From the NCBI GenBank assembly GCA_964351975.1, contig CAYGPK010000001.1, positions 85,270 to 149,269 on the forward strand: a stretch of DNA of 64,000 nucleotides, read 5' to 3'. The notes beneath the pieces are model-generated. The model ran no database searches. It had not been told where the DNA came from and worked only from the letters and a program-made list of their open reading frames with translations. This stretch comes from an uncultured Methanosarcinales archaeon (GTDB lineage Archaea; Nanobdellota; Nanobdellia; Woesearchaeales; UBA583). Each line of letters opens with the position of its first letter. Position 1 is the stretch's first letter. Positions 1,136 to 62,748 of this stretch are shown in pieces. Made by a program: the position numbers and the translations under genes.

Positions 1136-3031
1136 TTAAACGTCAATATCTTTTGCAAACTCTGCGTTTTCTATGATAAAGTTTTTACGTGGTTCTACTT
1201 TATCACCCATAAGCATTACAAATGCCATATCAGCTTCTATTGCATCATCAATAGTTACTTTTTTAAGGAATCTAAACTCAGGATCTAGCGTAGTTTCCCA
1301 TAATTGTTCTGCATTCATTTCTCCAAGACCTTTATATCTTTGAATTTCAATTTTTGTACCAGGATTTTCTTTTCTACATTCATCAAGAGCTAAATCATTG
1401 AATAAATATTTGCTAGTTTTTCCAATCTTTACTCTGTATAGTGGAGGCATTGCAATATATATGTGACCTTTTAATATTAATTCTTTAAAGTGTCTAAAGA
1501 ACAATGTTAATAATAATGTTGAAATGTGAGAACCATCAACATCAGCATCTGTCATAATAATAATTTTATGATATCTTAATTTTTCTGCATCAAAGTTTTC
1601 ACCAAAACCAGTTCCAAGAGCAGAGATTAGAGTTTTGATTTCTTCGTTTTCAAGAATTTTTACAAGTCTTGCTTTTTCAACATTTAAAATTTTTCCTTTA
1701 AGAGGTAGTATTGCTTGAGTTTCTCTAAGTCTTCCTTGTTTTGCTGATCCCCCCGCACTGTCTCCCTCTACAATAAATATTTCTGAAATAGAAGGGTCCT
1801 TACTTGAACAATCAGCAAGTTTACCCGGCAGAGATGAAAATTCTAGAACATTTTTTCTTCTTACTAAGTCTTTTGCTTTTCTAGCAGCTTCTCTTGCTTT
1901 TTGAGCTTGAAGAGCTTTTTCTAAAATGGATTGAGCAGCTTTTGGATTTTCATCTAAATATGTGTATAGTTTATCAAAGAATACAGTATTTACAATATTT
2001 TGAACTTCAGGATTTCCTAGTTTATCTTTTGTTTGACCTTCAAATTGTGGTTCTGGAACTTTAACTGAGATAATTGCAACGATTCCTTCTCTGATATCTT
2101 CACCAGTCAAGTTAATTTTCTTATCATTTGCTTTTCCATGTAAATTTAGATAGTCCTTTATTGCTTTAGTTATTGCAAGTTTAAATCCTGAGATATGTGT
2201 TCCACCACCTGGTGTTGGAATAATATTTACAAAACCTTCAAGTGTTTCATTGTAGGAATCAGTATATGTCATTGCAATATCAACTGTCACATCATCTTTT
2301 TCTCCACTTACGTGAACAATATCTTTAATTACTTGTTTAGAATTTTGTGTCATATATTTTACAAAATCACTAAGCCCACCTTCGTAGTGGAAAATTTCTT
2401 CTTTATTATTTCTCTCATCTGTAAATATAATTTTAACTTGAGGAGTTAGAAAAGCAACTTCACGATATCTTTTTATCATCGTTTTGAAATCAAATTCAAT
2501 TGTTTGAAAAATAGAAGCATCTGGGTGAAAAGTAACTTTTGTTCCCCTTTTAGAAGTTGGGCCTGTTTCAGATAAAGGATGAATTGCTTTTTGATCTTTG
2601 AATTTCATCTCAAATTTTTTACCACCACGGCAAATTTCAACTTCAAGATGAGTAGATAGTGCATTAACAACTGATGCACCAACACCATGTAGTCCTCCTG
2701 AAACTTTATAAGAGTCTTTATCGAATTTTCCACCTGCGTGTAGAACGGTGAAAATAACTTCTGCAGCGGATACTCCTTCTGCATGTTTATCAGTTGGGAT
2801 TCCACGGCCATTATCTTCAACAGTTACAGAATTATCTTTATGAATTGTAATTCTTACTTTATCACAATGTCCTGCTAGAGCTTCATCTATAGCATTATCA
2901 ACTAATTCTTTTACTAAGTGATGAAGACCATCTATTCCTGTTCCACCAATATACATCCCCGGTCTTTTTCTAACTGCTTCAAGTCCTTTTAGAACTTTAA
3001 TATTACTTGCTCCGTAATCTTCGTCTACCAT
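1136..3031 (-). CDS. gyrB: DNA gyrase subunit B
   Basis: The GHKL ATPase N-terminus (LEAVRKRPGMYIGGT, HHLVKELVDNAIDEALAG), a Toprim domain (EGDSAGG) and a C-terminal tail are present. 631 aa. No gyrA is adjacent. Confidence 0.9.
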   Translation of the reverse strand: MVDEDYGASNIKVLKGLEAVRKRPGMYIGGTGIDGLHHLVKELVDNAIDEALAGHCDKVRITIHKDNSVTVEDNGRGIPTDKHAEGVSAAEVIFTVLHAGGKFDKDSYKVSGGLHGVGASVVNALSTHLEVEICRGGKKFEMKFKDQKAIHPLSETGPTSKRGTKVTFHPDASIFQTIEFDFKTMIKRYREVAFLTPQVKIIFTDERNNKEEIFHYEGGLSDFVKYMTQNSKQVIKDIVHVSGEKDDVTVDIAMTYTDSYNETLEGFVNIIPTPGGGTHISGFKLAITKAIKDYLNLHGKANDKKINLTGEDIREGIVAIISVKVPEPQFEGQTKDKLGNPEVQNIVNTVFFDKLYTYLDENPKAAQSILEKALQAQKAREAARKAKDLVRRKNVLEFSSLPGKLADCSSKDPSISEIFIVEGDSAGGSAKQGRLRETQAILPLKGKILNVEKARLVKILENEEIKTLISALGTGFGENFDAEKLRYHKIIIMTDADVDGSHISTLLLTLFFRHFKELILKGHIYIAMPPLYRVKIGKTSKYLFNDLALDECRKENPGTKIEIQRYKGLGEMNAEQLWETTLDPEFRFLKKVTIDDAIEADMAFVMLMGDKVEPRKNFIIENAEFAKDIDV

Positions 3032-3513: not shown

Positions 3514-3638
3514 TTCTTTTATTTTAATTTCAAATTTTGGATTTTATTTTTTACAAATTAATATCAAATCAGTTTCCTTCGAACCTTTTCTTTAACGTTT
3601 ACTTTCATGGCACTAAGAAAAGCTTCACCAAAAGAATC

Positions 3639-4172
3639 TTATTTTCTACAAACTAAAATTAAATCTTTTTCTTCTTCAATTTTTTCTTCTATTTTAAAAT
3701 ATTTATTTAATTCACTTATTATATTTTCTTTTTTAGATGATTTTTTTAGAAATGAGAGAATTAAAATCCCCTTATTTTTTAAAATTCTATTAATTTCTGA
3801 AATTACTTTTTTAGTATTTTCAACATCTTGAATTGCTGTAAATGAAATTATATTATCTATGGAATTTGTTTTTATTGGGATATTAGTTATTGATGCTTGA
3901 AGTTTATTTTTATTTGAATTATTTTTAAGCATTTTAAAACTTAAATCAAGGGAGATTAAGTTTTGTTTTTTATCTAAGAAATTATTCAAAACACCATCTC
4001 CTGAACCTAAATCTAAAATTGGAGATTGAAGATTGGGAAGGTGAGAAGAGACAAGAGAAATTTTTTTAATTTGCTCAGAATGGTATAATTCAGAATATCC
4101 TTTAGAAATAGCATCATAGTAAAACTGAGTTTTTTTAATTTGAGGAATTTCTAAACCTTTATTTTTTTCCAT
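3639..4172 (-). CDS. class I SAM-dependent methyltransferase
   Basis: Motif I ILDLGSGDGVL. Confidence 0.6.
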   Translation of the reverse strand: MEKNKGLEIPQIKKTQFYYDAISKGYSELYHSEQIKKISLVSSHLPNLQSPILDLGSGDGVLNNFLDKKQNLISLDLSFKMLKNNSNKNKLQASITNIPIKTNSIDNIISFTAIQDVENTKKVISEINRILKNKGILILSFLKKSSKKENIISELNKYFKIEEKIEEEKDLILVCRK

Positions 4173-5880: not shown

Positions 5881-6663
5881 ATGGGATTTGTTGATGTTCA
5901 TTGTCATTTAGACTGGGAGAGTTACGGGGAAGATATTTACAAAATTATCTCAGAGATGAAAGAGAAGAAAATAATCGGCCTTTCAAATACTACGACACCA
6001 GAAGGTTTTGAACTTGCAAAAGAGAAGTTTAAAGAATATGATAATGTTAAAGTTTGCCCAGGACTTTATCCAACTGAGGCAAATAAGATTTCTGATTCTG
6101 ATTTTGAGAAATATTTAAAATATTTAGAAAGTATTAAGGATGAATTTCTTGCAATTGGAGAAATTGGTCTTGATAGACACCTTAATCGAGAGATGAGTGA
6201 AGAAGACCAAGAAATCGATAATAATGTTCAAGAGAAAAGATTTAGAGCTTTAATTGAGCTTGGGATTAAATTAGATAAGCCTTTGATTATACATACAAGA
6301 AGGGCGGAGGCTAGAGTTTTAGAAATAGTTCGTGAATATGTTGAGAGTACAGGATTTAAAAAATTTAATTTACATTGTTTTATGGGAAAGAAAAAGTTAA
6401 TAAAGGATATTGTAGAGTTACAAATATACTGTTCAATTCCATACATTGTTATGAACACTGAGAGTTTTAAAATTCTGGTTAATGAACTTCCGATTAGACA
6501 AATTTTAGTTGAGACGGATAGTCCTTTTTTACATCCAGATAGAATTCAAAATTCACCACTTAGTGTGCCTTTTATTTATGAAGAAATTGCAAGAATTAAA
6601 GGCTATGATAAAATAGAGATTGAGAATATAATATACCGAAACTATATGAAATTAATTAATTAA
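5881..6663 (+). CDS. tatD: TatD-family metal-dependent hydrolase (DNase)
   Basis: MGFVDVHCHLD and ETDSPFL motifs. 260 aa. Confidence 0.85.
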   Translation: MGFVDVHCHLDWESYGEDIYKIISEMKEKKIIGLSNTTTPEGFELAKEKFKEYDNVKVCPGLYPTEANKISDSDFEKYLKYLESIKDEFLAIGEIGLDRHLNREMSEEDQEIDNNVQEKRFRALIELGIKLDKPLIIHTRRAEARVLEIVREYVESTGFKKFNLHCFMGKKKLIKDIVELQIYCSIPYIVMNTESFKILVNELPIRQILVETDSPFLHPDRIQNSPLSVPFIYEEIARIKGYDKIEIENIIYRNYMKLIN

Positions 6664-12037: not shown

Positions 12038-12136
12038 AATTCTTTTTTTCCCCTTCGTAAAAAAGAATATAACAACAATTTTTTTTAAATATAAAAATTC
12101 TTGGAACATTTTTTTCCCTTCGTGAAAAAGAATATT
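12038..12136 (+). repeat. two copies of 'ttttttcccttcgtRaaaaagaatat', each forming an AT-stem hairpin. Terminator/promoter region between 11157..12035 and 12170..13705.
   Basis: Copy 1 at 12038..12070 (stem attctttttt / aaaaaagaat, loop tccccttcgt). Copy 2 at 12108..12136. A TATA-like 'atttataaa' at 12135..12143 lies inside the palindrome aagaat-atttataa-attctt. Confidence 0.4.
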
Positions 12137-12169
12137 TATAAATTCTTTTTTTTATAAAATAGTATAATA

Positions 12170-17463: not shown

Positions 17464-17475
17464 ATTACTTAAGTA

Positions 17476-17624
17476 TTTATCAATATATTTTCAAATAAAC
17501 CTTTTTTCGACGATTTTTCTTTTCGCAGTTTTTAAGTTCCGTTGAATCGAGAACTTAAACCTAGAAAATCGTAAAAAAGCTTTACCAAAAAATGGTGTTT
17601 TTATCAATATATTTTTAAATAAAC
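17476..17624 (+). repeat. palindromic ~97-bp element (17501..17597) flanked by a 25-bp direct repeat (17476..17500 and 17598..17624; 24/25 identical; contains TATA-like tttttaaataaac)
   Basis: Outer stem cttttttcgacgatttt / aaaatcgtaaaaaag. Inner hairpin taagttc-CGTTGAATCGAG-gaactta. The second direct-repeat copy sits 17-28 nt upstream of ATG 17641. Confidence 0.6.
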
Positions 17625-17640
17625 TAGAACTTAATAAGTT

Positions 17641-17871
17641 ATGAAGTCAGAAGATATCAAACTTGAGGCAAAAAATATTATGGATAATTTTATGTCTGCT
17701 ATGAAAGATATTGAAGTAGAGAATGATTTTATATTAGAGAGAGAAAATTCTTTTCGAGTAGAAGGAGATGGAGATGAATTAGATGAGAGTTTTAAGCAAA
17801 GATTTTTAGCAAATGCTAAAAGAACAACTGGTGATGCTATTCTCGCAAATAAAGGTGAGTGGGAGAGATAA
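17641..17871 (+). CDS. small acidic protein, possibly GatC-like
   Basis: LERENSFRVEGD...FKQRFLANAK resembles the GatC 'LReD...eeaLaNAP' region. Weak. No gatA/gatB nearby. Confidence 0.3.
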   Translation: MKSEDIKLEAKNIMDNFMSAMKDIEVENDFILERENSFRVEGDGDELDESFKQRFLANAKRTTGDAILANKGEWER

Positions 17872-18455
17872 ATATGGTAAAAAAAGAAGAAAACAAAAAG
17901 AAATATTTAAAGAAAGAAGAAGAAGGAGTTAGCAAACAAACTAAATATATGAGTTATTTTATTATTTTTATTATGATTTTTAGTGTAGCAGGTTTTGCAA
18001 TTTTAAGTGGAGGAGGAGGTAGTTTAGGAAGTTCTGGCACTTCTACCACTAGAGATTTACCTTTACAAGCAGATGTTTTTCAAAATCCACAAACTGGAGA
18101 AACTTATTGGGGAGCAGTTCTTAATGGTGAGCAATTTATTTTCTTTAATGGAGTTGAGGGTTATGAATTAAGAGAGGATATGAAAGGGATTGCTTCACAA
18201 ATTAAAAGTACTGAGTTTGTTAATATTTATGTTGATCCAAATTATCAATCTTCTGATGCTATTTATGTTGTTGAGAAAGCTTTAACTGGTCTGGAAATTT
18301 CACATCAAAGAATTACAGGAAATTTGAGTTGTACACCTAATACTTTAGTATTTACAAATAATATGACTGTAGATGGAGATTGTATTGTATTTGTAAGTCC
18401 ACAGGGTGAAGAGTATTTAGAATCAGATGTATTAGTTTATCATTTAATCAAATAA
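17859..18455 (+). CDS. membrane-anchored secreted protein, unknown function
   Basis: K-rich N-terminus, TM segment (YMSYFIIFIMIFSVAGFAIL) and a G/S-rich linker. The start may be the ATG at 17874 rather than 17859. Confidence 0.45.
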   Translation: MGEINMVKKEENKKKYLKKEEEGVSKQTKYMSYFIIFIMIFSVAGFAILSGGGGSLGSSGTSTTRDLPLQADVFQNPQTGETYWGAVLNGEQFIFFNGVEGYELREDMKGIASQIKSTEFVNIYVDPNYQSSDAIYVVEKALTGLEISHQRITGNLSCTPNTLVFTNNMTVDGDCIVFVSPQGEEYLESDVLVYHLIK

Positions 18456-18573
18456 ACCTTTTTTCTGCGATTTCTACTAATCGATGTCACAAACACCGTT
18501 GTATCGAGTGGTTTGTTCCTAAGAAATCGAAAAAAGCTTTACCAAAAAAAGTTTTTAATTTATTTCACAAACC
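18435..18573 (+). repeat. second copy of the palindromic element (core 18459..18550), with degenerate flanking repeats
   Basis: The termini aaaccttttttc and aaaaaagctttaccaaaaaa and the loop CGTTGTATCGAG are the same as in copy A. Outer stem cttttttc-tgc-gatttc / gaaatcg-aaaaaag. Inner stem acaaac/gtttgt. Confidence 0.55.
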
Positions 18574-19363
18574 ATTCTTGAATATCTTTTAGTGAGTATA
18601 TTCTTTTTGCATTTTTTTCAACATCATGAACTTTTAAAAGCCATTCTTCTTTAGGGTGAAATGGAGTTTTCCCAAAGTAGAGTTCTTTTGGAAGTATTTT
18701 TCTAATTGCTGTTTCATTTTTGTAGTTGGTATATTTTATTTTTACTTCTTCTTTTGCAAAGATTAGTATTTCAGGTAAAAGTTCTTCAAATTTATGAAGT
18801 ATTTTATGAGGGTTTCCATCATTTAAAACTTCAATACTATGAAATCCCCAACTAACTGCAAGTGATTTAACATTAACTTTATGAGCTTCTTTTAAATCTC
18901 CAAGCGTGTCTGTTATGAATAAACATTCTTCTGGTTTTAGATTATAATCCTTGAATAGCATTTTAAATTTTTCAACTTTAGAAGGATGTGTTTCTCTACC
19001 CATTATACTCTCAAAGTTTTTTTTTAAATCTACACTTTCAAGATACTTTGTTATTTTATTATTTCCTCCACTTGTTATTACATGTAGTTTAAATCTTTTT
19101 TTAAGGTTAGTAATAGTTTCAAAGATTGGTTCGAAAAAATGTTCTTCTTTTTTAAATCTTTGATTATGTTCAGAATCAAAACTCTCCATTGGTATTGTAT
19201 TAGTTGAGGTTTTAGGATTTTCGTAGACATTACTATTATGTAAATCCCTATATTCTTTTTCCTTCATTTTAGGATGGAAAACTTTAACTACTTCGTAATT
19301 CAATTTATAAGTATTGGCAATTACACCATCAAAATCAAAAATGACAGCTTTTAAATTGGTCAT
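18560..19363 (-). CDS. HAD-superfamily hydrolase with a C-terminal extension
   Basis: N-terminal VIFDFDGVIANT (HAD motif I). Confidence 0.7.
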   Translation of the reverse strand: MTNLKAVIFDFDGVIANTYKLNYEVVKVFHPKMKEKEYRDLHNSNVYENPKTSTNTIPMESFDSEHNQRFKKEEHFFEPIFETITNLKKRFKLHVITSGGNNKITKYLESVDLKKNFESIMGRETHPSKVEKFKMLFKDYNLKPEECLFITDTLGDLKEAHKVNVKSLAVSWGFHSIEVLNDGNPHKILHKFEELLPEILIFAKEEVKIKYTNYKNETAIRKILPKELYFGKTPFHPKEEWLLKVHDVEKNAKRIYSLKDIQEWFVK

Positions 19364-31883: not shown

Positions 31884-31992
31884 TTCTAAATATCTATTTT
31901 TCTAATTTTTTCGTTATTTTAATGTTTACATAGTTATACTATGCTACACACTAAAATGTCTCAAACTTAAAAAAATATCTAATTTAGAATTT

Positions 31993-38486: not shown

Positions 38487-38497
38487 ATTTTTTTCTT

Positions 38498-38538
38498 TAT
38501 TTTTAGTTTAAATTAATTGTTCCATTTGCAATCAACAA
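38498..38538 (-). repeat. diverged duplicate of the ccdA 3' end, encoding the same C-terminal peptide (L)LIANGTINLN*
   Basis: The reverse-strand translation of 38503..38538 gives LLIANGTINLN-stop. It differs from the real gene end (38573..38608) only by synonymous changes, and is out of frame with ccdA. Confidence 0.55.
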
Positions 38539-38572
38539 AAATCTTAGATTTTTGAGATCACAAATTTCACTT

Positions 38573-39277
38573 TTAGTTAAGGTTGATAGTTCCATTTGCA
38601 ATTAATATTAATAACCAACCTAGACCAATTAATAATAATCCTGTGAAGTATCTCATATAGGATTTATTTGATTGTTTCCAATTTTGAACTTTTTGAATTT
38701 TAACACCAAAGTATACCATAAGTACAATTATAATTAATGGTAATACAAATATGAAATTGTATATCATAAGTAATATTAATGCACTCATGTCAAAATTTTC
38801 TTTAAGTATTAAAAGAATTGCAAGGTAAGGTCCACCAGTACAAGGTAGTTCTACAGCTGCAACAAATGCTCCTAAAAAGATAACTGTTCCAACAGAAACA
38901 TTTTGCATTTTTTCTTGAATTTTCTTTGCATATTTTGGAGGAATATGAAGTGAAACTCCTTCCCCATACCAAAAATAATCTTTCATTTCAAGAATTCCTG
39001 CTATAACTACAATTATTCCTACAAATATTGAAATATACTCTGCAACCCAAATTGGAATTGCTGATAGGAATGCTAGAACTCCGAATCCTAGTACGAAGTA
39101 TGTAATATATACTGCAGCAATATATAGTGCTCCAATCTTTAGCATTTTACTTTTTTGTTTTGTAACAAGTAGAGTTGATAACAATAAAATTAAAACTCCT
39201 ATAGCACAAGGATTTATACTATCAATTAATGCTGTAAAAATGATAGTTGTTAATGTTGGTAATGCGATTTCTACCAT
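38573..39277 (-). CDS. ccdA: cytochrome c-type biogenesis/thiol-disulfide transporter CcdA (DsbD transmembrane-domain family)
   Basis: Conserved NPC (IDSINPCAIG) and PCT (VELPCTGGPY) cysteine motifs in a 6-TM protein. Confidence 0.7.
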   Translation of the reverse strand: MVEIALPTLTTIIFTALIDSINPCAIGVLILLLSTLLVTKQKSKMLKIGALYIAAVYITYFVLGFGVLAFLSAIPIWVAEYISIFVGIIVVIAGILEMKDYFWYGEGVSLHIPPKYAKKIQEKMQNVSVGTVIFLGAFVAAVELPCTGGPYLAILLILKENFDMSALILLMIYNFIFVLPLIIIVLMVYFGVKIQKVQNWKQSNKSYMRYFTGLLLIGLGWLLILIANGTINLN

Positions 39278-41269: not shown

Positions 41270-41316
41270 ATTAATACTTTGGGTTTAAGATTTATATTAC
41301 TTTCTTTTATTTAGAA

Positions 41317-41346
41317 AGCGGCAAGACTGAGATTTGAAGTCTTAGA
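41317..41346 (-). repeat. partial duplicate of the tRNA-Ser 3' end (acceptor 3' strand plus T-loop; non-functional T-stem)
   Basis: ga[ag]agcggcaagactg[ag]gatttgaa is shared with 41424..41450 (25/27 identical). In the duplicate the T-stem pairing is destroyed. Confidence 0.6.
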
Positions 41347-41428
41347 GTGAAACGACGAGATACCAAAAATTATTATATAATTTCTAAGAAATAATTTTTG
41401 AGTACCAGAATGTAATTCTGGGTGAGAG

Positions 41429-41510
41429 CGGCAAGACTGGGATTTGAACCCAGAATTCCAAAGGAACCACCTTTCCAGGGTGGCGCAATACCGGATTATG
41501 CGATCTTGCC
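41429..41510 (-). tRNA. tRNA-Ser (anticodon GGA), type II with a long variable arm and 3-bp D-stem
   Basis: Manual fold of the reverse complement. Acceptor stem GGCAAGA/TCTTGCC with discriminator G. Anticodon stem-loop CCACC-CTGGAAA-GGTGG. Variable arm TTCC-TTT-GGAA. T-arm CTGGG-TTCAAAT-CCCAG. No encoded CCA. Confidence 0.85.
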
Positions 41511-56992: not shown

Positions 56993-58906
56993 ATGGTAAA
57001 AATCCTAGATGAAATTATGAAAGAATTACCTCAAGAAGAGGTTAGTTCTGTTGAATTTGAAGGTGCAAACATTGTTGTTTACACGAAAAGTAAAGACTTC
57101 CTATTTAAAGGAAGAGCAAAGATAAAACAAATTGTTTCTATCTTTAAAAAAAGAATTGAACTACGTGCTGACGCAAGTATTTTAATGAAAGAAGAAGATA
57201 CGCAGAAAGCAGTAAAAGAGATTTTAAGCGATGTTGAAAATTTAGAATTTAAATTTGATTCTGCAAGATCAAGATTGACTTTAGAAGTTGATAATGTTGG
57301 TGCTGCTGTTGGTAAAGAGGGTTCTAATTTGAAAGAAATTCAGAAAAGAACAATGTGGACTGTTGTTGTAAGGAGAATTCCTCCTATTAGATCAAAAACT
57401 GTTGATGCTATGCGTGCTGTTGAGTTTCAAGAATCAGAGTATAGAAGAAAATTTTTGAATAAAGTTGGTAAGAGAATTTATGGAGGTTGGAACAAAGGAA
57501 AGATTAAAGGCTGGTCAAGAGTTACTATGCTTGGAGCTGGAAATCAAATAGGTAGAAGTTCTATTTATTTACAAACAACTGAGAGTAGAATTTTATTTGA
57601 TTGTGGAATTGATCCAAGTGTTCCTTTGGGTGACCCCGCGGAATTTCCTTATTTAGATTCTCCAGATTTTAAGTTAGAAGATGTTGATGCAGTAGTTTTA
57701 TCACATGCACATATGGATCATTGTGGTTTACTTCCTTATTTATATAGGGTAGGATATAAAGGTCCTATTTATTGTACTGAGCCAACGCGTGATATTATGG
57801 CTCTTTCCCAATTAGATTTTATTAAAATTATGGGACAAACTCAAGCTGAGAGTGTTTTATATAAAGCTGAAGATGTTAAAGAGATGATTAAACATGTTAT
57901 TACACTTGATTATGGAAGTGTGACAGATATTACTCCGGACATTAGATTAACATTTTATAACAGTGGGCATATTTTAGGTAGTGCATTTTGTCATGTTAAT
58001 ATTGGTAATGGTATGCATAATTTCATGTATACAGGAGATTTTAATTATTCTTTTAAACAAAGATTACTTGATAGGGCTGTTACTGAATTTCCAAGACTTG
58101 AGAGTATTATGATGGAAAATACAAGTACTGGTTCTAAAGATATTTCAATGTCTCGTGAAGATGCTGAAGAGGAACTTCTTAAAATTTTAGTTGATGCTTA
58201 TGTAAATAAAGGAAAAGTTATTATTCCAGTTTTTGGTGTTGGACGTTCACAAGAAATGCTTCTGGTTATTGAGAGTTTAATTTCTCAAGGAAGATTACCT
58301 AAAGATATTAAAGTTTATGTTGATGGAATGGTTTATGAAGTTACAGCAATTCACACAGCTTATCCTGAATTTTTAAATAGGCAATTAAGAAGTAGAATTT
58401 TGCGAGGGGATAATCCTTTTACAATTGAGAATTTTAAAGCAGTAGGTTCTCATAAAGAGAGAGAAGCAATTTTTGAGAGTAATGAGTGTGCAATTGTTCT
58501 TGCAACATCAGGTATGCTTAATGGTGGAACTTCACTTGAATATTTTAAACAATTCGCACCTTATGAAAATAATGCAATTGTTTTTGTTGGTTATCAAGCA
58601 AGAGGAACTTTAGGACGTCGTGTTAAAGATGGTGAGAAGGAAATCTTATTATCTAATACTGGAAGTTCTGATGATAGAATTTCTGTTAAAATGAAAGTTT
58701 GTGAAATGAAAGGTGCATTTTCAGCTCATAGTGATTTTAATCTAACTAAGAAATTTGTTTCAAATTTATCAGTTAAACCTAAAAAAGTGATTTTAAATCA
58801 TGGTGAACCTGCTAAGCTTGCTTCATTTTCAGAAGTTGTTAAAAGAATTATTCCGGGTGTTAAAACTTATACTCCTGAGAACTTGGAATCAATTAGATTG
58901 AATTAG
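56993..58906 (+). CDS. archaeal CPSF1-type beta-CASP ribonuclease with N-terminal KH domains (aCPSF1/FttA)
   Basis: KH-like N-terminus. Metallo-beta-lactamase HAHMDHCG. Length 637 aa is typical of aCPSF1. Confidence 0.85.
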   Translation: MVKILDEIMKELPQEEVSSVEFEGANIVVYTKSKDFLFKGRAKIKQIVSIFKKRIELRADASILMKEEDTQKAVKEILSDVENLEFKFDSARSRLTLEVDNVGAAVGKEGSNLKEIQKRTMWTVVVRRIPPIRSKTVDAMRAVEFQESEYRRKFLNKVGKRIYGGWNKGKIKGWSRVTMLGAGNQIGRSSIYLQTTESRILFDCGIDPSVPLGDPAEFPYLDSPDFKLEDVDAVVLSHAHMDHCGLLPYLYRVGYKGPIYCTEPTRDIMALSQLDFIKIMGQTQAESVLYKAEDVKEMIKHVITLDYGSVTDITPDIRLTFYNSGHILGSAFCHVNIGNGMHNFMYTGDFNYSFKQRLLDRAVTEFPRLESIMMENTSTGSKDISMSREDAEEELLKILVDAYVNKGKVIIPVFGVGRSQEMLLVIESLISQGRLPKDIKVYVDGMVYEVTAIHTAYPEFLNRQLRSRILRGDNPFTIENFKAVGSHKEREAIFESNECAIVLATSGMLNGGTSLEYFKQFAPYENNAIVFVGYQARGTLGRRVKDGEKEILLSNTGSSDDRISVKMKVCEMKGAFSAHSDFNLTKKFVSNLSVKPKKVILNHGEPAKLASFSEVVKRIIPGVKTYTPENLESIRLN

Positions 58907-59820: not shown

Positions 59821-59926
59821 TTGAGTGTGCAGTACTTGAGATTATCTCGAGTGCGAAGAACGGAAGAAATGTTTACATTTCTAATGAGGTTAAATTTGAA
59901 TCTGTAGTAAAAATATAGTGTATTTG
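59821..59926 (+). other. 5' strand of the 23S rRNA processing stem (pairs with 62747..62816)
   Basis: 59888..59926 (ggttaaatttgaatctgtagtaaaaatatagtgtatttg) is complementary to 62747..62779. 59821..59829 (ttgagtgtg) pairs with 62808..62816. The stem begins immediately after tRNA-Ala. Confidence 0.7.
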
Positions 59927-62748
59927 TAAAATAATAAACTCTATTATGTGGATGACTTGGCTTGAGTAACGATGAAGGGCGTGGTTAGCTGCGATAATCG
60001 TAAGGTAGGGGCATACTCCCATTGAACTTACGGTACCTGAATTGGACTTCCTAATAATTCGCTAGACGAAGGTGTACCTGGGGAACTGAAACATCTTAGT
60101 ACCCGGAGGAAGAGAAATCAATTGAGATTCGGTTAGTAACAGCGAGTGAAAACCGATCAGATCAAACTGAATCTGTATTAGTAATAATATAGAGATGTGG
60201 TGTATGGAGCCTTGTTGGACCTTGATAAATGTTAAAATATTCTGGAAAGTATAACCTTAGAGGGTGATAGTCCCGTATGGCATTGTTGATAGGTTCTTTA
60301 GGAATTCCTGAGTAGTGTCTGTTGGAATTCAGGCATGAATATGGGGGACACTGACCTCCAAATCTAAATATAACTCAAGACCGATAGAGAATTAGTAGCG
60401 TGAGCGAATGTTGAAAAGAAGCCTTAATAGGTTTTGAAAAGATCTGAAACATACTAGAGATAGGATGATGCGGCGTTTAGGCGTTGCATCGTACGTTCTG
60501 AATAACGGGCCAGGGAGTTTATTTTTGTGGCAAGATGAAAGTCGAAGGGAAACCGAGTGGTGTTAATAGCGCCCATAGTCACAGGGATAAGACCCGAAAC
60601 CAGATGATCTATACCTGAGCAGGCTGAAGCGGGAGTAAAATCCCGTGGAGGGCCGAAGCTGTATCGCGTTTATTGATTTGTATGACTTGGGTATAGGGGT
60701 GAAAAGCCAATCGAATCTGGTGATAGCTGGTTCCAGTCAAAATTGGCCTTAGTCAAGCCTTCATGGAGAATGTTACAGGGGTAGAGCTACGGATTAGAAG
60801 GTTGGGGAGAGCAATTTCTTCATTTTTTAGTCCAACTCCGAATACTGTGACTTCGTAGAAGTGAGGAGACGGGATTACACGGGGTAAACTTGTAATCCGC
60901 GAGGGGAACAACCCAGACTACAGTTAAGGCCCCTAAATGATAATTAAGTGATAAAGGGTAAAGGGTGTGTGTATTCGAAGACAAAGAGGAGGTTTGCTTA
61001 GAAGCAGCAATCCCTTAAAGAATGCGTAACAGCTCACTCTTCGAGAGTATATGCCCCGAAAATAATCGGGTCTAAATTATCTGCCGATACTGTAGTTCAT
61101 GCACACGGTGCATGTAAGTTAGACTGGTGATGTGATAGGGTAGAAGTAAGTCTTCAAGGATTTGTGGACCTATTACATATAAGAATCCTGGCGGTAGTAG
61201 GAGAATAGAGGTGTGAGAGTCACCTCGGACGAAAGGGCAAGGGTTCCTTCTCAATGTAGTTCAGAGAAGGGTTAGTCACTCCTAACTCCTGTCCTAATTG
61301 GATAAGGGGGAAAGGGAAACAGATTAATATTTCTGTACTGTTTAGATAAACATGGTGACATAAGTACTATTTCGATCGGATAGGGCTAATTGCTACTAGA
61401 CTTGTCTAGTTTAAGAAGCATAAGACATTGGAGTGTTGTAATGACGAGAAAATGTTTAAACTTTTATGAGTAATTTGTGATGACGCCTAGTTTCTTTGAA
61501 AACGAAATAGTATTGATTCTAAATAAGTGTACCCACAACCGGCACAGGTGCCCCAAGGTGAGAAACCTAAGTCCTGCAGGGTTAATCTTTCTAAGGGAAT
61601 TCGGCAAATTAGCCACATGCCTTCGGTATATGTGGTCCCTGGAATATATGATAATTTCAATTAATTTCAGGGTGCAATAGCAAGGACGGTCCGACTGTTT
61701 AATTAAAACATAGCCAACTGCTAGGCCGTAAGGCTGCGTATAGTTGGTGAAGTCTGCCCACTGCCAGTAACTAAAACCCTTTTTCAAGGGGGCCAAGGTC
61801 TGGTAAAGGGCGGGGATAACTATGATCCTCTTAAGGTAGCGAAATGCCTTGCCGTTTAAATGACGGCTTGCATGAATGGCGTAACGAGATTGTCACTGTC
61901 CCTAGAAAGAACCCTCCGAATACACTATCCCGGTGCAAAAGCCGGGGACTCCAAGTGGGAAGTAAAGACCCCGTTGAACTTTACTGCAGCCTGCTATTGT
62001 GATCAATTTTATAGTATAACAAGGAGCTTCGGCGACAAGGTAGTACTTGTTGCTATGAAGTTGGTTGCTTATCCCTATATGGGAAACAGTAGTTGGTGGG
62101 CAGTTTGGCTGGGGTGGCACCCTGCTGAAAAGATATCAGCAGGGCCCAAAGGTTGGCTCAGTTGGTTTAGAAATCCAACGTAGAGTGTAAGGGCAAAAGC
62201 CAGCTTTATTGTGATTACCATAATACTAATCGCAATTTGGAAACAATGGCCTAACGATCTACAATGTGCTTCTTAGTGAGGCCTTGTATTGACAGAAAAG
62301 TTACCACGGGGATAACAGAGTTGTCGCTCCTGAGAGTTCATATCGACGGAGCGGTTTGCTACATCGATGTCGGCTCATCCTAACCTGGCACTGCAGCAGG
62401 TGCCAAAGGTGGGGGTGTTCACCCATTAAAAGGGTTCGTGAGCTGGGTTTACAACGCTGTGAGGCAGTTGGTATAATATCTGCTTGGAGTGTTTAGTATC
62501 TGCGAGAAAGATGCGTTTAGTACGAAAGGAACGGCGGGTCGTGGCCACTGGTGTATCTATTGTCCATATGGGCATGTAGAGCAGCTACGCCATCAGGGAT
62601 AAAGGCTGAAAGCATCTAAGCCTGAAACCCTCCTCTAAAAAAGATACATTGTTTGCGAGTAAAAGACTCGTTTGATAGGAGTGCGGTGTGCGATAGAAGC
62701 TAAAGCGACTATTTTAGCCGGCACTTACTAAAAAACATATTAAACACA
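59927..62748 (+). rRNA. rrl: 23S ribosomal RNA (~2.8 kb, boundaries +/-20 nt). No intron.
   Basis: Conserved 23S blocks are present: GTGGATGACTTGGC near the 5' end, GCGTAACAGCTCAC (~1090), a sarcin-ricin-like AGTACGAAAGGAAC (~62517), and the 3' block TTAGCCGGCACTTACTAA. GC content rises to ~50%. Confidence 0.9.

What the first reader, a model, noticed from the sequence alone, without database searches (positions are those of the whole stretch)
18459..18550. Copy B of the palindromic element, at the 3' end of a secreted-protein gene and convergent with a HAD hydrolase gene.
It has the same architecture as copy A (see 17501..17597). It begins inside or at the stop codon of ORF 17859..18455 ('...tcaaataaACCttttttc') and ends 10 nt before the stop of the minus-strand gene 18560..19363. 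Placing it between convergent genes fits a bidirectional terminator or stability element. Its flanks carry degenerate versions of the 25-bp direct repeat seen around copy A. The left one, 18435..18456, lies inside C-terminal codons. The right one is 18552..18573. This suggests an older insertion or duplication event.
Basis: seen in the sequence. Interest (0 to 1): 0.6.

Follow-up and report, generated by a model that had tools for sequence, protein, structure and literature searches.

The report
Stop-codon hairpin element between converging genes
A real, inserted, about 110-base hairpin-forming non-coding element sits between two converging genes of an AT-rich archaeon, most likely ends transcription from both sides, and has flanking motifs that match a family of hairpins placed right after stop codons in virophages and giant viruses.

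Summary
Copy B is real. By identity with copy A it spans 18448-18557. It starts in the stop codon of the 193-aa gene and ends 2 nt before the stop of the converging HAD gene. A and B share four near-invariant blocks (18/18, 6/6, 12/13, 20/20 nt). The rest is at random-level identity, yet the 8-9 bp upper stem is complementary in both copies with a different sequence. Hairpins are predicted as RNA (z about -2.4) and as DNA (z -3.9 to -4.7).

All orthologous loci in relatives lack the element. The claimed degenerate direct repeats around B are not significant (p 0.40 and 0.55). Copy A's 28-bp repeat is real and att-like. There is no Rfam hit and no transposase in the window.

The outer module (AACCTTTT ... 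AAAAGCTTNACCAAAA) also marks a short third copy (3581-3635). It is the signature of a multi-copy family in virophage and giant-virus contigs (31 and 20 loci versus 0 for a control), often starting exactly at a stop codon.

Best reading: an inserted 3'-end hairpin that works as a bidirectional U-tract terminator. The function is inferred, not shown.

The parts
18448..18557 (+). Copy B, whole element as defined by identity with copy A (TCAAATAAAC ... GTTTTTA)
   Evidence: Ungapped A/B alignment and block identities.
18453..18455 (+). TAA stop codon of the 193-aa membrane-anchored protein gene (17874-18455), inside the element's 5' lead
18455..18462 (+). 5' signature AACCTTTT; the T run continues to 18464 (T6), giving a U-tract 4 nt after the stop codon
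18458..18464 (+). Outer helix, 5' arm CTTTTTT; pairs with 18530-18536
   Evidence: Folds. The sequence is invariant between A and B.
18468..18474 (+). Second helix, 5' arm CGATTTC; pairs with GAAATCG at 18523-18529
18489..18496 (+). Upper helix, 5' arm ACAAACAC; pairs with GTGGTTTGT at 18508-18516 (G18511 bulged). The sequence is unrelated to A's TTTAAGTTC/GAACTTAAA
   Evidence: separate folds of each upper hairpin; direct reading.
18497..18507 (+). Conserved 11-nt apical loop CGTTGTATCGA (A has CGTTGAATCGA)
18508..18516 (+). Upper helix, 3' arm
18523..18536 (+). 3' arms of the second helix (GAAATCG) and the outer helix (AAAAAAG)
18532..18547 (+). 3' signature AAAAGCTTTACCAAAA, with a single-stranded ACCA after the helix
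18530..18550 (-). On the minus strand, T7 (18544-50) then GGTAAAGC then T6 (18530-35). These U-tracts begin 9 nt after the HAD gene's stop
18552..18556 (+). T5 downstream of the hairpin, a second plus-strand U-tract. It is conserved in A at 17598-17602
   Evidence: D6.
18560..19363 (-). Converging HAD-family hydrolase gene
   Evidence: Pfam HAD_2, 1.4e-21.
17491..17603 (+). Copy A of the same element
17473..17500 (+). Left copy of the 28-bp direct repeat around A. Its inner end TCAAATAAAC has the state seen in B
   Evidence: D4; D6.
17597..17624 (+). Right copy of the 28-bp repeat. It is the TATA-box promoter of the leaderless 76-aa gene, and its inner end GTTTTTA has the state seen in B
3581..3635 (+). 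Copy C, a short form with the outer module only (gAACCTTTT, 28 nt, AAAAGCTTCACCAAAA). It ends 3 nt before the stop of the converging methyltransferase gene 3639-4172
   Evidence: It is the top hit of the virophage-derived covariance model (25 bits, E about 1e-3).
56993..58906 (+). FttA/aCPSF1 gene, the candidate trans-acting factor for U-tract termination (inferred link only)
   Evidence: Pfam KH_TffA, Beta-Casp and RMMBL.

Best explanation
Copy B is one of three copies in this window of a lineage-specific non-coding hairpin element. The copies are A (17491-17603), B (18448-57) and a short form C (3581-3635). The element was inserted at gene ends and works as a transcript 3'-end and termination module in both directions.

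Shown:
- The invariant outer module consists of the stop codon overlapping AACC, a T6 tract, a helix, then GCTTTACC plus an A run.
- This places a U6 tract 4 nt after the stop of the 193-aa gene on the plus strand.
- It places U7 and U6 tracts 9 nt after the stop of the HAD gene on the minus strand.

Inferred:
- In archaea such U-tracts are the termination signal. They are bound by the KH domains of FttA/aCPSF1, which cuts downstream and prefers single-stranded CA (PMC8716108, PMC3553952, PMC7515710).
- The element offers a single-stranded ACCA just after the helix, and the genome encodes FttA.
- The inner hairpin (second helix, covarying upper helix, conserved 11-nt loop) is specific to A and B and is kept by selection on structure. 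Its role is undetermined: a protein-binding site, a 3'-end stabiliser on read-through transcripts, or the recognition site for whatever copies the element.

How it spread (inferred): copy A arrived by recombination or template switching between the element's joined ends and a look-alike promoter sequence, not by cut-and-paste transposition.
For: - Anatomy and position.
- Mosaic conservation: blocks of 18/18, 6/6, 12/13 and 20/20 nt are identical, against 6/22 and 3/13 in the variable blocks.
- The upper helix is complementary in both copies with unrelated sequences.
- Hairpins are predicted as RNA and as DNA.
- The element is absent from all orthologous loci. At site A, L005 and L041 have only 50 and 37 nt between the orthologous genes.
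- Relatives carry unrelated hairpins or a bare T6A6 at the same gene end: L040, L002, L006, L005.
- Other converging gene pairs in the window show the same T-run, hairpin, A-run layout, for example 31884-31992 and 12042-12065.
- An FttA gene is present.
- A's 28-bp repeat matches at 26/28, and both mismatches carry the state of the element ends as seen in B.
- The same outer signature marks a viral family: 13 of 45 distinct copies start within 2 nt of the stop codon of a long ORF, against 0.26 expected.
- A covariance model built only from virophage copies ranks C first, A third and B sixth in the window.
Against: - There are no expression or 3'-end data, so termination is inferred from sequence alone.
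- Archaeal termination does not need a hairpin (PMC7515710), so termination does not explain the conserved inner hairpin and loop.
- The T6 lies upstream of the hairpin, so efficiently terminated sense transcripts would not contain the hairpin.
- Copy A has two internal T5 runs on the plus strand.
- Copy A has no minus-strand gene to terminate.
- Only three copies are visible, and none were found outside this organism with the full A/B pattern.
- The FttA/CA-site link is an analogy taken from other archaea.
Confidence: 0.45

Rival explanations
1. The element is a selfish mobile DNA palindrome, MITE-like or att/ori-like. The hairpin and its conserved loop form in single-stranded or cruciform DNA and are the recognition or nicking site of a recombinase or HUH-type nuclease encoded elsewhere. 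The T and A runs are incidental. This overlaps with the best explanation, because an inserted element can also terminate transcription.
For: - A conserved loop on a stem of free sequence is typical of nick or recognition hairpins (a rolling-circle origin example: PMC13107129).
- DNA folds are more significant than RNA folds (z -3.9 to -4.7 versus -2.4).
- A's 28-bp repeat has an attL/attR-like chimeric pattern. It carries no other mismatch, while the variable blocks of A and B are saturated, which implies a recent insertion from another donor copy.
- ATCG motifs recur 4-5 times in about 60 nt of a 27% GC genome.
- Assembled contigs of the same organism break inside the elements, including a k-1 overlap that indicates a graph branch in B's 5' part.
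Against: - No transposase, integrase or Rep was found in any ORF of 90 aa or more in the 64 kb window.
- B has no flanking duplication.
- Viral family members show no consistent target duplication.
- Copy number is low.
- In 13 of 45 family members the placement is exactly at a stop codon, which points to a gene-end function or a very specific target.
Confidence: 0.25
2. A and B are paralogous genes for a small structured RNA of about 85-105 nt on the plus strand. Transcription would start from the TATA-like TTTCAAATAA / AATCAAATAA upstream and end at the GTTTTT downstream. The conserved loop would bind a protein or another RNA.
For: - The genome's promoters are TTTATAAA / TTTTAAATA boxes 22-28 nt upstream of leaderless start codons.
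- The left repeat of A is a near copy of such a promoter.
- A T5 follows both copies.
- The mosaic of conserved blocks plus a covarying helix is typical of structured RNAs.
Against: - The promoter geometry predicts a start near 17517 / 18474, inside the second helix. That would exclude the conserved outer helix from the RNA.
- The TATA-like box carries a C at a core position.
- A has internal T5 runs.
- No Rfam family matches.
- There are no C/D or H/ACA boxes. The K-loop reading fails because the required A is a U in copy B.
- No antisense targets were found in the rRNA or tRNAs of the window.
Confidence: 0.12
3. The element is a neutral by-product. A local duplication of an AT-rich terminator region has decayed, and the resemblance to the viral family is a low-complexity coincidence.
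For: - This genome and its relatives show several short intergenic duplications: 12044-12159, 38496-38612, 41314-41448, L002 and L006.
- Much of the shared signature consists of A and T runs.
- The N'-N pairing across the family is not significant (permutation p = 0.07).
Against: - Neutral decay cannot keep an 8-9 bp helix complementary while replacing its sequence, nor keep 56 of 57 positions in four blocks while the rest is saturated.
- The reversed-pattern control found 0 viral loci against 31 for the real pattern.
- The viral family is multi-copy, structured and tied to stop codons.
Confidence: 0.05

Closest known systems
Archaeal U-tract terminators that depend on FttA/aCPSF1
   Same: - U6/U7 tracts lie directly downstream of both converging stop codons.
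- FttA is encoded in the window.
- A single-stranded CA follows the helix. In Pyrococcus abyssi, aCPSF1 prefers single-stranded CA (PMC3553952), and in Methanococcus its KH domains bind U-tracts (PMC8716108).
   Different: - Known archaeal terminators are plain U-tracts with no conserved hairpin (PMC7515710).
- Here the tracts are the arms of a long conserved hairpin with invariant non-U motifs (AACC, GCTTTACC) and a conserved apical loop.
A/T-rich hairpins after stop codons in giant viruses and virophages (the 'hairpin rule' for 3'-end formation)
   Same: - The hairpin starts at or next to the stop codon.
- The window elements share the bipartite signature AACCTTTT ... AAAAGCTTNACCAAAA with a multi-copy family in virophage contigs (Sputnik-type capsid protein) and giant-virus-like contigs (fused topoisomerase II; GVMAG contigs).
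   Different: - The hairpin rule as described uses gene-specific palindromes without conserved flanks (as summarised in PMC8557863 and PMC4402537).
- The host here is an archaeon.
- The inner helices of the virophage subfamily are not shared: the covariance model aligns only the flanks.
MITEs and REP-type palindromic repeats of prokaryotes
   Same: - Small, non-coding and intergenic, with inverted arms.
- Present or absent between lineages.
- Can serve as terminators or mRNA stabilisers.
   Different: - No fixed-length target duplication, and none at all at B.
- No partner transposase or RAYT in the window, and no GTAG/CGTC head.
- Very low copy number.
- The stem covaries around a conserved loop, which is not expected for transposase-bound terminal repeats.
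Integron attC sites
   Same: - Imperfect palindromes at the 3' ends of genes.
- Conserved ends with a central part that is conserved in structure but variable in sequence.
   Different: - No RYYYAAC / GTTRRRY core sites and no integrase.
- The flanked genes are syntenic core genes in relatives, not cassettes.
- The central loop is conserved here, whereas in attC it is variable.
Metazoan histone mRNA 3' stem-loop followed by ACCCA and cut by CPSF73 (recalled from memory, a lead only)
   Same: - A stem-loop is followed by a single-stranded ACC(C)A.
- A viral variant of the family reads AAAGGCTTTACCCAAA.
- The nuclease family is the same as that of FttA.
   Different: - There is no SLBP or U7 system in archaea.
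- Stem and loop sequences are unrelated.
- Not tested here.

Membership tests
Archaeal U-tract / FttA-dependent terminator | A run of at least 4-5 U on the transcribed strand shortly after the stop codon | tested here: met
   T6 at 18459-64, 4 nt after the TAA. On the minus strand, T7 at 18544-50 and T6 at 18530-35, starting 9 nt after the HAD stop.
Archaeal U-tract / FttA-dependent terminator | The termination factor FttA/aCPSF1 is encoded by the organism | tested here: met
   56993-58906: KH_TffA, Beta-Casp and RMMBL domains.
Archaeal U-tract / FttA-dependent terminator | Transcript 3' ends map to the tract | not testable with these tools
   No transcript data are available.
Virophage / giant-virus post-stop-codon hairpin family (defined here by its signature) | 5' AACCTTTT and 3' AAAAGCTTNACCAAAA flanking a hairpin | tested here: met
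   Window copies A, B and C. The family has 31 viral loci at gap 0-30 and 20 at gap 28-58, against 0 for the reversed control.
Virophage / giant-virus post-stop-codon hairpin family (defined here by its signature) | The element starts within 2 nt of the stop codon of the upstream gene | tested here: met
   For B, the TAA ends at the first A of AACC. Family-wide, 13 of 45 copies against 0.26 expected. Window copies A and C do not meet this.
Virophage / giant-virus post-stop-codon hairpin family (defined here by its signature) | The three-tier fold of the virophage subfamily: 5 bp, 3x3 loop, 4 bp, 3x3 loop, 5-7 bp, with covariation | tested here: not met
   The virophage consensus has 14 pairs, 7 with compensatory changes. 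In the window the model aligns only the flanks and skips the interior.
Virophage / giant-virus post-stop-codon hairpin family (defined here by its signature) | A significant score against a covariance model built from virophage copies only | tested here: inconclusive
   C scores 25.0 bits (E about 1e-3), A 22.9 bits (E about 4e-3) and B 16.4 bits (E 0.18). An unrelated antisense site in gyrB also scores 22.9 bits. E-values are rough.
MITE | Terminal inverted repeats | tested here: met
   AAACCTTTTTTC..CGATTT(T)C against its complement at the 3' side.
MITE | A target-site duplication of fixed length flanking each copy | tested here: not met
   B has none (p 0.40 and 0.55). A has a 28-bp chimeric repeat. 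Viral copies show none.
MITE | A related autonomous element or transposase | tested here: not met
   None among all ORFs of 90 aa or more in the window. The rest of the genome could not be read.
REP / RAYT | A 20-40 nt palindrome with a GTAG or CGTC head, high copy number, and a RAYT gene | tested here: not met
   The element is about 110 nt, has no such head and has 2-3 copies. No Y1 transposase is present.
Integron attC | R''/R' core sites (RYYYAAC ... GTTRRRY) and a nearby integron integrase | tested here: not met
   The core sites are absent from the sequence, there is no integrase, and the flanked genes are syntenic in relatives.
Archaeal C/D box or H/ACA guide RNA | C/D boxes (RUGAUGA, CUGA), or an ACA box plus a K-turn or K-loop | tested here: not met
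   No boxes are present. The K-loop reading needs GA, but copy B has GU. No Rfam match at gathering or E<=10 thresholds.
IS200/IS605-derived palindrome-associated element | Two subterminal hairpins, insertion 3' of a fixed tetra- or pentanucleotide, no flanking repeat, and a TnpA gene | tested here: not met
   There is a single long hairpin, A has a 28-bp repeat, and there is no TnpA. Both copies do follow AAATAAAC.

The most novel reading that the evidence does not exclude
The outer module (stop codon/AACC, U-tract, helix, GCUUNACC, A-run) may define an undescribed family of transcript 3'-end elements, or of small mobile hairpins. The family would be shared by a DPANN-like archaeon, virophages and giant viruses. 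Two origins are possible:
- Polymerases and beta-CASP nucleases of the archaeal/eukaryotic type read the same signal.
- A tiny element crosses between these genomes.

Copies A and B would then be an archaeal elaboration that carries an extra hairpin with a conserved loop.
Probability: 0.3. Interest if true: 0.75.

Novelty: new variant of a known kind. Interest (0 to 1): 0.55.

Why it matters
Archaeal termination is currently described as plain U-tracts read by FttA, and no conserved structured terminator module is known. A hairpin with invariant flanks, a covarying stem and a conserved loop would give a concrete sequence to test with FttA and archaeal RNA polymerase. It sits exactly on stop codons and shows signs of having been copied within the genome.

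If the shared signature with virophage and giant-virus hairpins reflects common function or descent, it links 3'-end formation in archaea and in viruses of eukaryotes. It would also supply a searchable motif for annotating gene ends in these poorly annotated genomes.

If it is only a lineage-specific palindromic repeat, it is a modest addition to the catalogue of small prokaryotic repeats.

Tried and rejected
- **K-loop / H/ACA reading of the apical loop.** Rejected: the needed GA is GU in B, and there is no ACA box.
- **C/D box RNA.** No boxes in A or B. The AUGAUGA seen after the stop codon in relatives (L002, L040, L041) lies in Watson-Crick stems, not K-turns.
- **tRNA-like or T-loop reading.** ARAGORN and Rfam find nothing, and the loop has 6 unpaired nt rather than 7.
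- **Coding potential.** A has a 38-codon minus-strand ORF, but the same frame has stops in B. A search with that translation found nothing.
- **Antisense targets of the variable internal loops.** None in rRNA or tRNA.
- **attC, REP and IS200/IS605.** Defining features are absent (see the membership table).
- **Searches for further full-length copies.** The loop plus 3'-end pattern gave only chance hits in coding DNA of unrelated bacteria in one genome per species. The same was true in JGI metagenomes and in viral contigs. BLAST against phages and plasmids gave nothing. No extra copies were found in relatives' loci.
- **B's flanking repeats.** Tested and not significant.
- **N'-N base pair closing the outer helix.** It looked promising (G-C 9, T-A 4, C-G 1), but the permutation test gives p = 0.07.
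- **Target duplications in viral copies.** None found.
- **Homology between the insert next to tRNA-Ser and A/B.** None.
- **A properly gapped A/B alignment for pair counting.** Not possible with the tools, because B's bulge shifts the register. The consensus fold therefore captures only 5 pairs. The helices were instead read from the separate folds of each copy.

Full report
**Context.** The window is from an archaeon: an archaeal LSU rRNA lies at 59924-62747. GC content is 22-31% outside the rRNA. The genes are housekeeping ones, including gyrB, SecD/F, ThrRS, MetRS, eIF6, L1/L10, Rpp14, TopA and FttA/aCPSF1. Promoters are TTTATAAA / TTTTAAATA boxes 22-28 nt upstream of the start codon, so the mRNAs are leaderless. 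I infer a DPANN-type organism from the composition and from the relatives; this was not tested.

**Observation.** The palindrome reported at 18459-18550 exists. Aligned with copy A, which lies exactly 957 nt upstream in the same orientation and has the same length, the shared element runs from 18448 to 18557.
- Its first block, TCAAATAAACCTTTTTTC, contains the TAA stop codon (18453-55) of the 193-aa membrane-anchored protein gene.
- Its last block ends 2 nt before the stop (18560-62, minus strand) of a HAD hydrolase gene.

Conservation between A and B is sharply bimodal:

| Block | Identical positions |
|---|---|
| 5' lead (TCAAATAAACCTTTTTTC) | 18/18 |
| CGATTT | 6/6 |
| Apical loop region (CCGTTGNATCGAG) | 12/13 |
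| 3' block (AAAAAAGCTTTACCAAAAAA) | 20/20 |
| Variable block 1 | 6/22 |
| Variable block 2 | 3/13 |

The two variable blocks are at the level expected for unrelated AT-rich sequence. Inside them the upper helix is still complementary in both copies. A has TTTAAGTTC/GAACTTAAA (9 bp). B has ACAAACAC/GTGGTTTGT (8 bp plus one bulged G). Structure, not sequence, is kept. The whole element folds into a three-tier hairpin as RNA (z about -2.4) and as DNA (z -3.9 to -4.7).

**Flanks.** Copy A is bracketed by a 28-bp direct repeat, 17473-17500 and 17597-17624, identical at 26 of 28 positions. No other such match exists in the window (0.04 expected).
- The right copy is the promoter of the 76-aa gene.
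- Both mismatches lie at the ends next to the element, and each carries the state seen in copy B (TCAAATAAAC on the left, GTTTTTA on the right).
- The repeat is therefore chimeric, like attL/attR after recombination between the joined ends of an element and a look-alike target, or like a microhomology-guided template switch. The strictly duplicated core is TCAATATATTT.
- The repeat has no other mismatch, while the variable blocks of A and B are saturated. So A was inserted much later than A and B diverged, which implies further donor copies that I could not see.
Beyond the conserved element ends, the flanks are no more similar to A's repeat than random window sequence. Both flanks are the C-terminal codons of genes.

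**Empty sites.** Homologues of the 193-aa protein (37-68% identity) gave syntenic loci: RimK, Rpp14, a 273-296-aa membrane protein, a 170-189-aa protein in some loci, a 75-78-aa protein, a 193-aa protein and TopA. None contains the element or its signature.
- At site A, L005 and L041 have only 50 and 37 nt between the orthologous genes, holding a single promoter box. Orthology is confirmed.
- At site B, the closest relative (L040) has the same converging HAD gene and a 93-nt spacer with an unrelated two-tier hairpin.
- L002/L004 and L006/L007 have other hairpins plus duplications of the last 16-25 nt of the gene.
- L005 has a bare T6A6.

The element is therefore lineage-specific, while 'some hairpin or T/A tract at this gene end' is general. 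The relatives are distant, so this is not a strain-level empty-site test.

**Search for relatives of the whole element.** There is no Rfam hit. Patterns combining the loop with the 3' block, or all three cores, returned only chance matches in coding DNA of unrelated organisms. This held for one genome per species, JGI metagenomes and viral contigs. Phage and plasmid BLAST found nothing. No ORF of 90 aa or more in the window is a transposase, integrase or Rep.

**The outer module is a wider family.** A third site in the window, 3581-3635, has the same outer module around an unrelated 28-nt interior: gAACCTTTT ... AAAAGCTTCACCAAAA. The T-to-C change in the T-run is matched by an A-to-G change in the A-run. 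The site abuts the stop of a converging methyltransferase gene.

Searching viral contigs with AACCTTTT, a gap, then AAAAGCTTNACCAAAA gave these counts:

| Pattern | Viral loci |
|---|---|
| Gap 0-30 | 31 |
| Gap 28-58 | 20 |
| Gap 45-75 | 2 |
| Reversed control pattern | 0 |

 Members fall into three groups:
- **Virophage contigs.** These carry a Sputnik-type capsid protein and have 4-6 copies per roughly 22 kb. Each copy is a 59-67-nt three-tier hairpin. Its consensus has 14 pairs, 7 with compensatory changes and none broken in the middle helix.
- **A 53% GC contig with a fused topoisomerase II.** It has at least nine copies with perfect GC-rich hairpins.
- **Giant-virus bins.** These carry tandem arrays of the short form.

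In 13 of 45 distinct copies, a reading frame of 80 codons or more ends within 2 nt of the AACC, against 0.26 expected. The copies are not all independent. Window copy B is one of these 13. The viral copies have no consistent flanking duplication.

A covariance model built only from 12 virophage copies ranks the window sites as follows:

| Window site | Rank | Bits | E-value |
|---|---|---|---|
| C | 1st | 25.0 | about 1e-3 |
| A | 3rd | 22.9 | about 4e-3 |
| B | 6th | 16.4 | 0.18 |

The model aligns only the flanks, and one unrelated site scores as high as A. The window elements therefore share the outer signature, not the virophage interior. The family is not in Rfam, and its motif strings are absent from the searchable literature. 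The apparent base pair between the nucleotide before AACC and the N of GCTTNACC is not significant (p = 0.07).

**Mechanism.**
- *Shown:* U6 follows the plus-strand stop by 4 nt. U7 and U6 follow the minus-strand stop by 9 nt. A further U5 follows the hairpin. The organism encodes FttA.
- *From the literature:* archaeal termination relies on U-tracts and does not require hairpins (PMC7515710). FttA/aCPSF1 binds U-tracts through its KH domains and cuts downstream (PMC8716108). The Pyrococcus enzyme prefers single-stranded CA (PMC3553952). Giant viruses and virophages form mRNA 3' ends at hairpins placed after stop codons (PMC8557863, PMC4402537).
- *Inferred:* the outer module is a two-way 3'-end/termination signal, with the ACCA after the helix as a possible cut site. 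The inner hairpin of A and B serves something else: protein binding, protection of read-through transcripts, or recognition by the copying machinery. Other converging gene pairs in the window use the same T-run, hairpin, A-run layout with unrelated sequences, which supports the functional reading.

**Weak points.**
- There are no transcript data.
- The hairpin lies downstream of the first U-tract.
- Copy A has internal T5 runs and no minus-strand gene to stop.

**Rivals.**
- A purely selfish DNA palindrome recognised by a recombinase or nickase fits the att-like repeat, the conserved loop and the stronger DNA folds. It lacks any enzyme candidate and does not explain the stop-codon placement.
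- A stand-alone small RNA fits the promoter-like box and the T5. The predicted start, however, would exclude the conserved outer helix, and no known boxes are present.
- Neutral duplication is excluded by the compensatory helix and the mosaic conservation.

**Verdict.** The element is an inserted, structurally constrained gene-end hairpin. It is most plausibly a bidirectional terminator module, and it belongs by its flanks to an apparently undescribed family shared with virophages and giant viruses. The cross-domain link rests on about 23 specified bases plus architecture and position. I rate it as likely real but unexplained.

Noticed in passing
window 41314-41448 (tRNA-Ser at 41428-41510, minus strand): The last 21 nt of tRNA-Ser plus 4 nt downstream are duplicated 110 nt further on (23/25 identical). 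The duplicates bracket an 85-nt hairpin-rich insert. This looks like the att sites of an integrated element reduced to a stub. There is no integrase nearby and no homology to elements A or B.
   Followed up: partly
window 12042-12159: A roughly 65-nt unit is tandemly duplicated. The unit is a mini T7/A6 hairpin (CTTTTTTTCCCCTTCGTAAAAAAG, sharing TCGTAAAAAAG with copy A) plus a promoter-like T-rich box.
   Followed up: partly
window 38496-38612: A 47-nt direct repeat with 70-nt period lies in a 440-nt intergenic region that may hold an unannotated minus-strand ORF.
   Followed up: no
L002 6567-6647, L006 6566-6597, L041 about 6530-6610: In relatives, the last 16-25 nt of the 193-aa gene (...ATCATATGATTAAATAA) are duplicated in tandem or around a 31-nt insert. 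This is the same gene end where copy B sits in the window.
   Followed up: partly
L001, L108, L109, L110 (assembled contigs of the same organism from runs ERR3534985 and ERR3534981): Contigs break inside the elements. One ends at 17552 and the next starts at 17540, an overlap equal to the apical loop of A plus 2 nt. Two overlap by exactly 30 nt at 18453-18482, which is a k-1 graph branch in B's 5' part. One from another run starts at 18507, the last loop base of B. This may reflect extra copies, strain variation or hairpin-related coverage loss.
   Followed up: partly
L140/L143/L145 (IMGVR_UViG_2706796767_000001); L016, L027, L035, L138, L139, L141, L144, L147: Virophage contigs with a Sputnik-type capsid carry 4-6 copies of a 59-67-nt three-tier hairpin with strong covariation. 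Each copy sits after a gene end, and copies sometimes face each other between converging genes. No Rfam family matches.
   Followed up: partly
L111/L129/L136 (IMGVR_UViG_3300045825_000703, 53% GC): A giant-virus-like contig with a fused topoisomerase II has at least nine copies of AACCTTTT(A/C)TCT, a perfect GC-rich hairpin, then GCAAAAGCTT(C/A)ACCAAAA. They occur in both orientations and in tandem pairs.
   Followed up: partly
L112 2466-2642; L022, L033, L034, L036, L037: Giant-virus bins contain tandem arrays with a period of about 30 nt of the short form TATAACCTTTTGAAAAAAG(C/T)TTTACCAAAA.
   Followed up: no
L029, L032, L137, L112: A variant signature, A(G/C)CCTTTT ... AAAGGCTT(T/C)ACCCAAA, occurs beside the main form in the same contigs. 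Its helix is perfect in a shifted register and is followed by ACCCA.
   Followed up: no
window 18560-19363 versus L040 505-1203: The window's HAD protein has a 59-residue C-terminal extension that the closest relative lacks. The relative's protein ends at ...ELLPEILIFAKQESKE.
   Followed up: no
window 1864-1927 (+), antisense to gyrB: This site scores 22.9 bits with the virophage-derived covariance model, including inner helices. It lies inside a coding region and lacks the ACC motifs, so it is probably a chance hit.
   Followed up: no
window 31884-31992: Another converging gene pair is separated by T-runs, a long imperfect hairpin and an A7 run. The layout matches copy B but the sequence is unrelated.
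   Followed up: no
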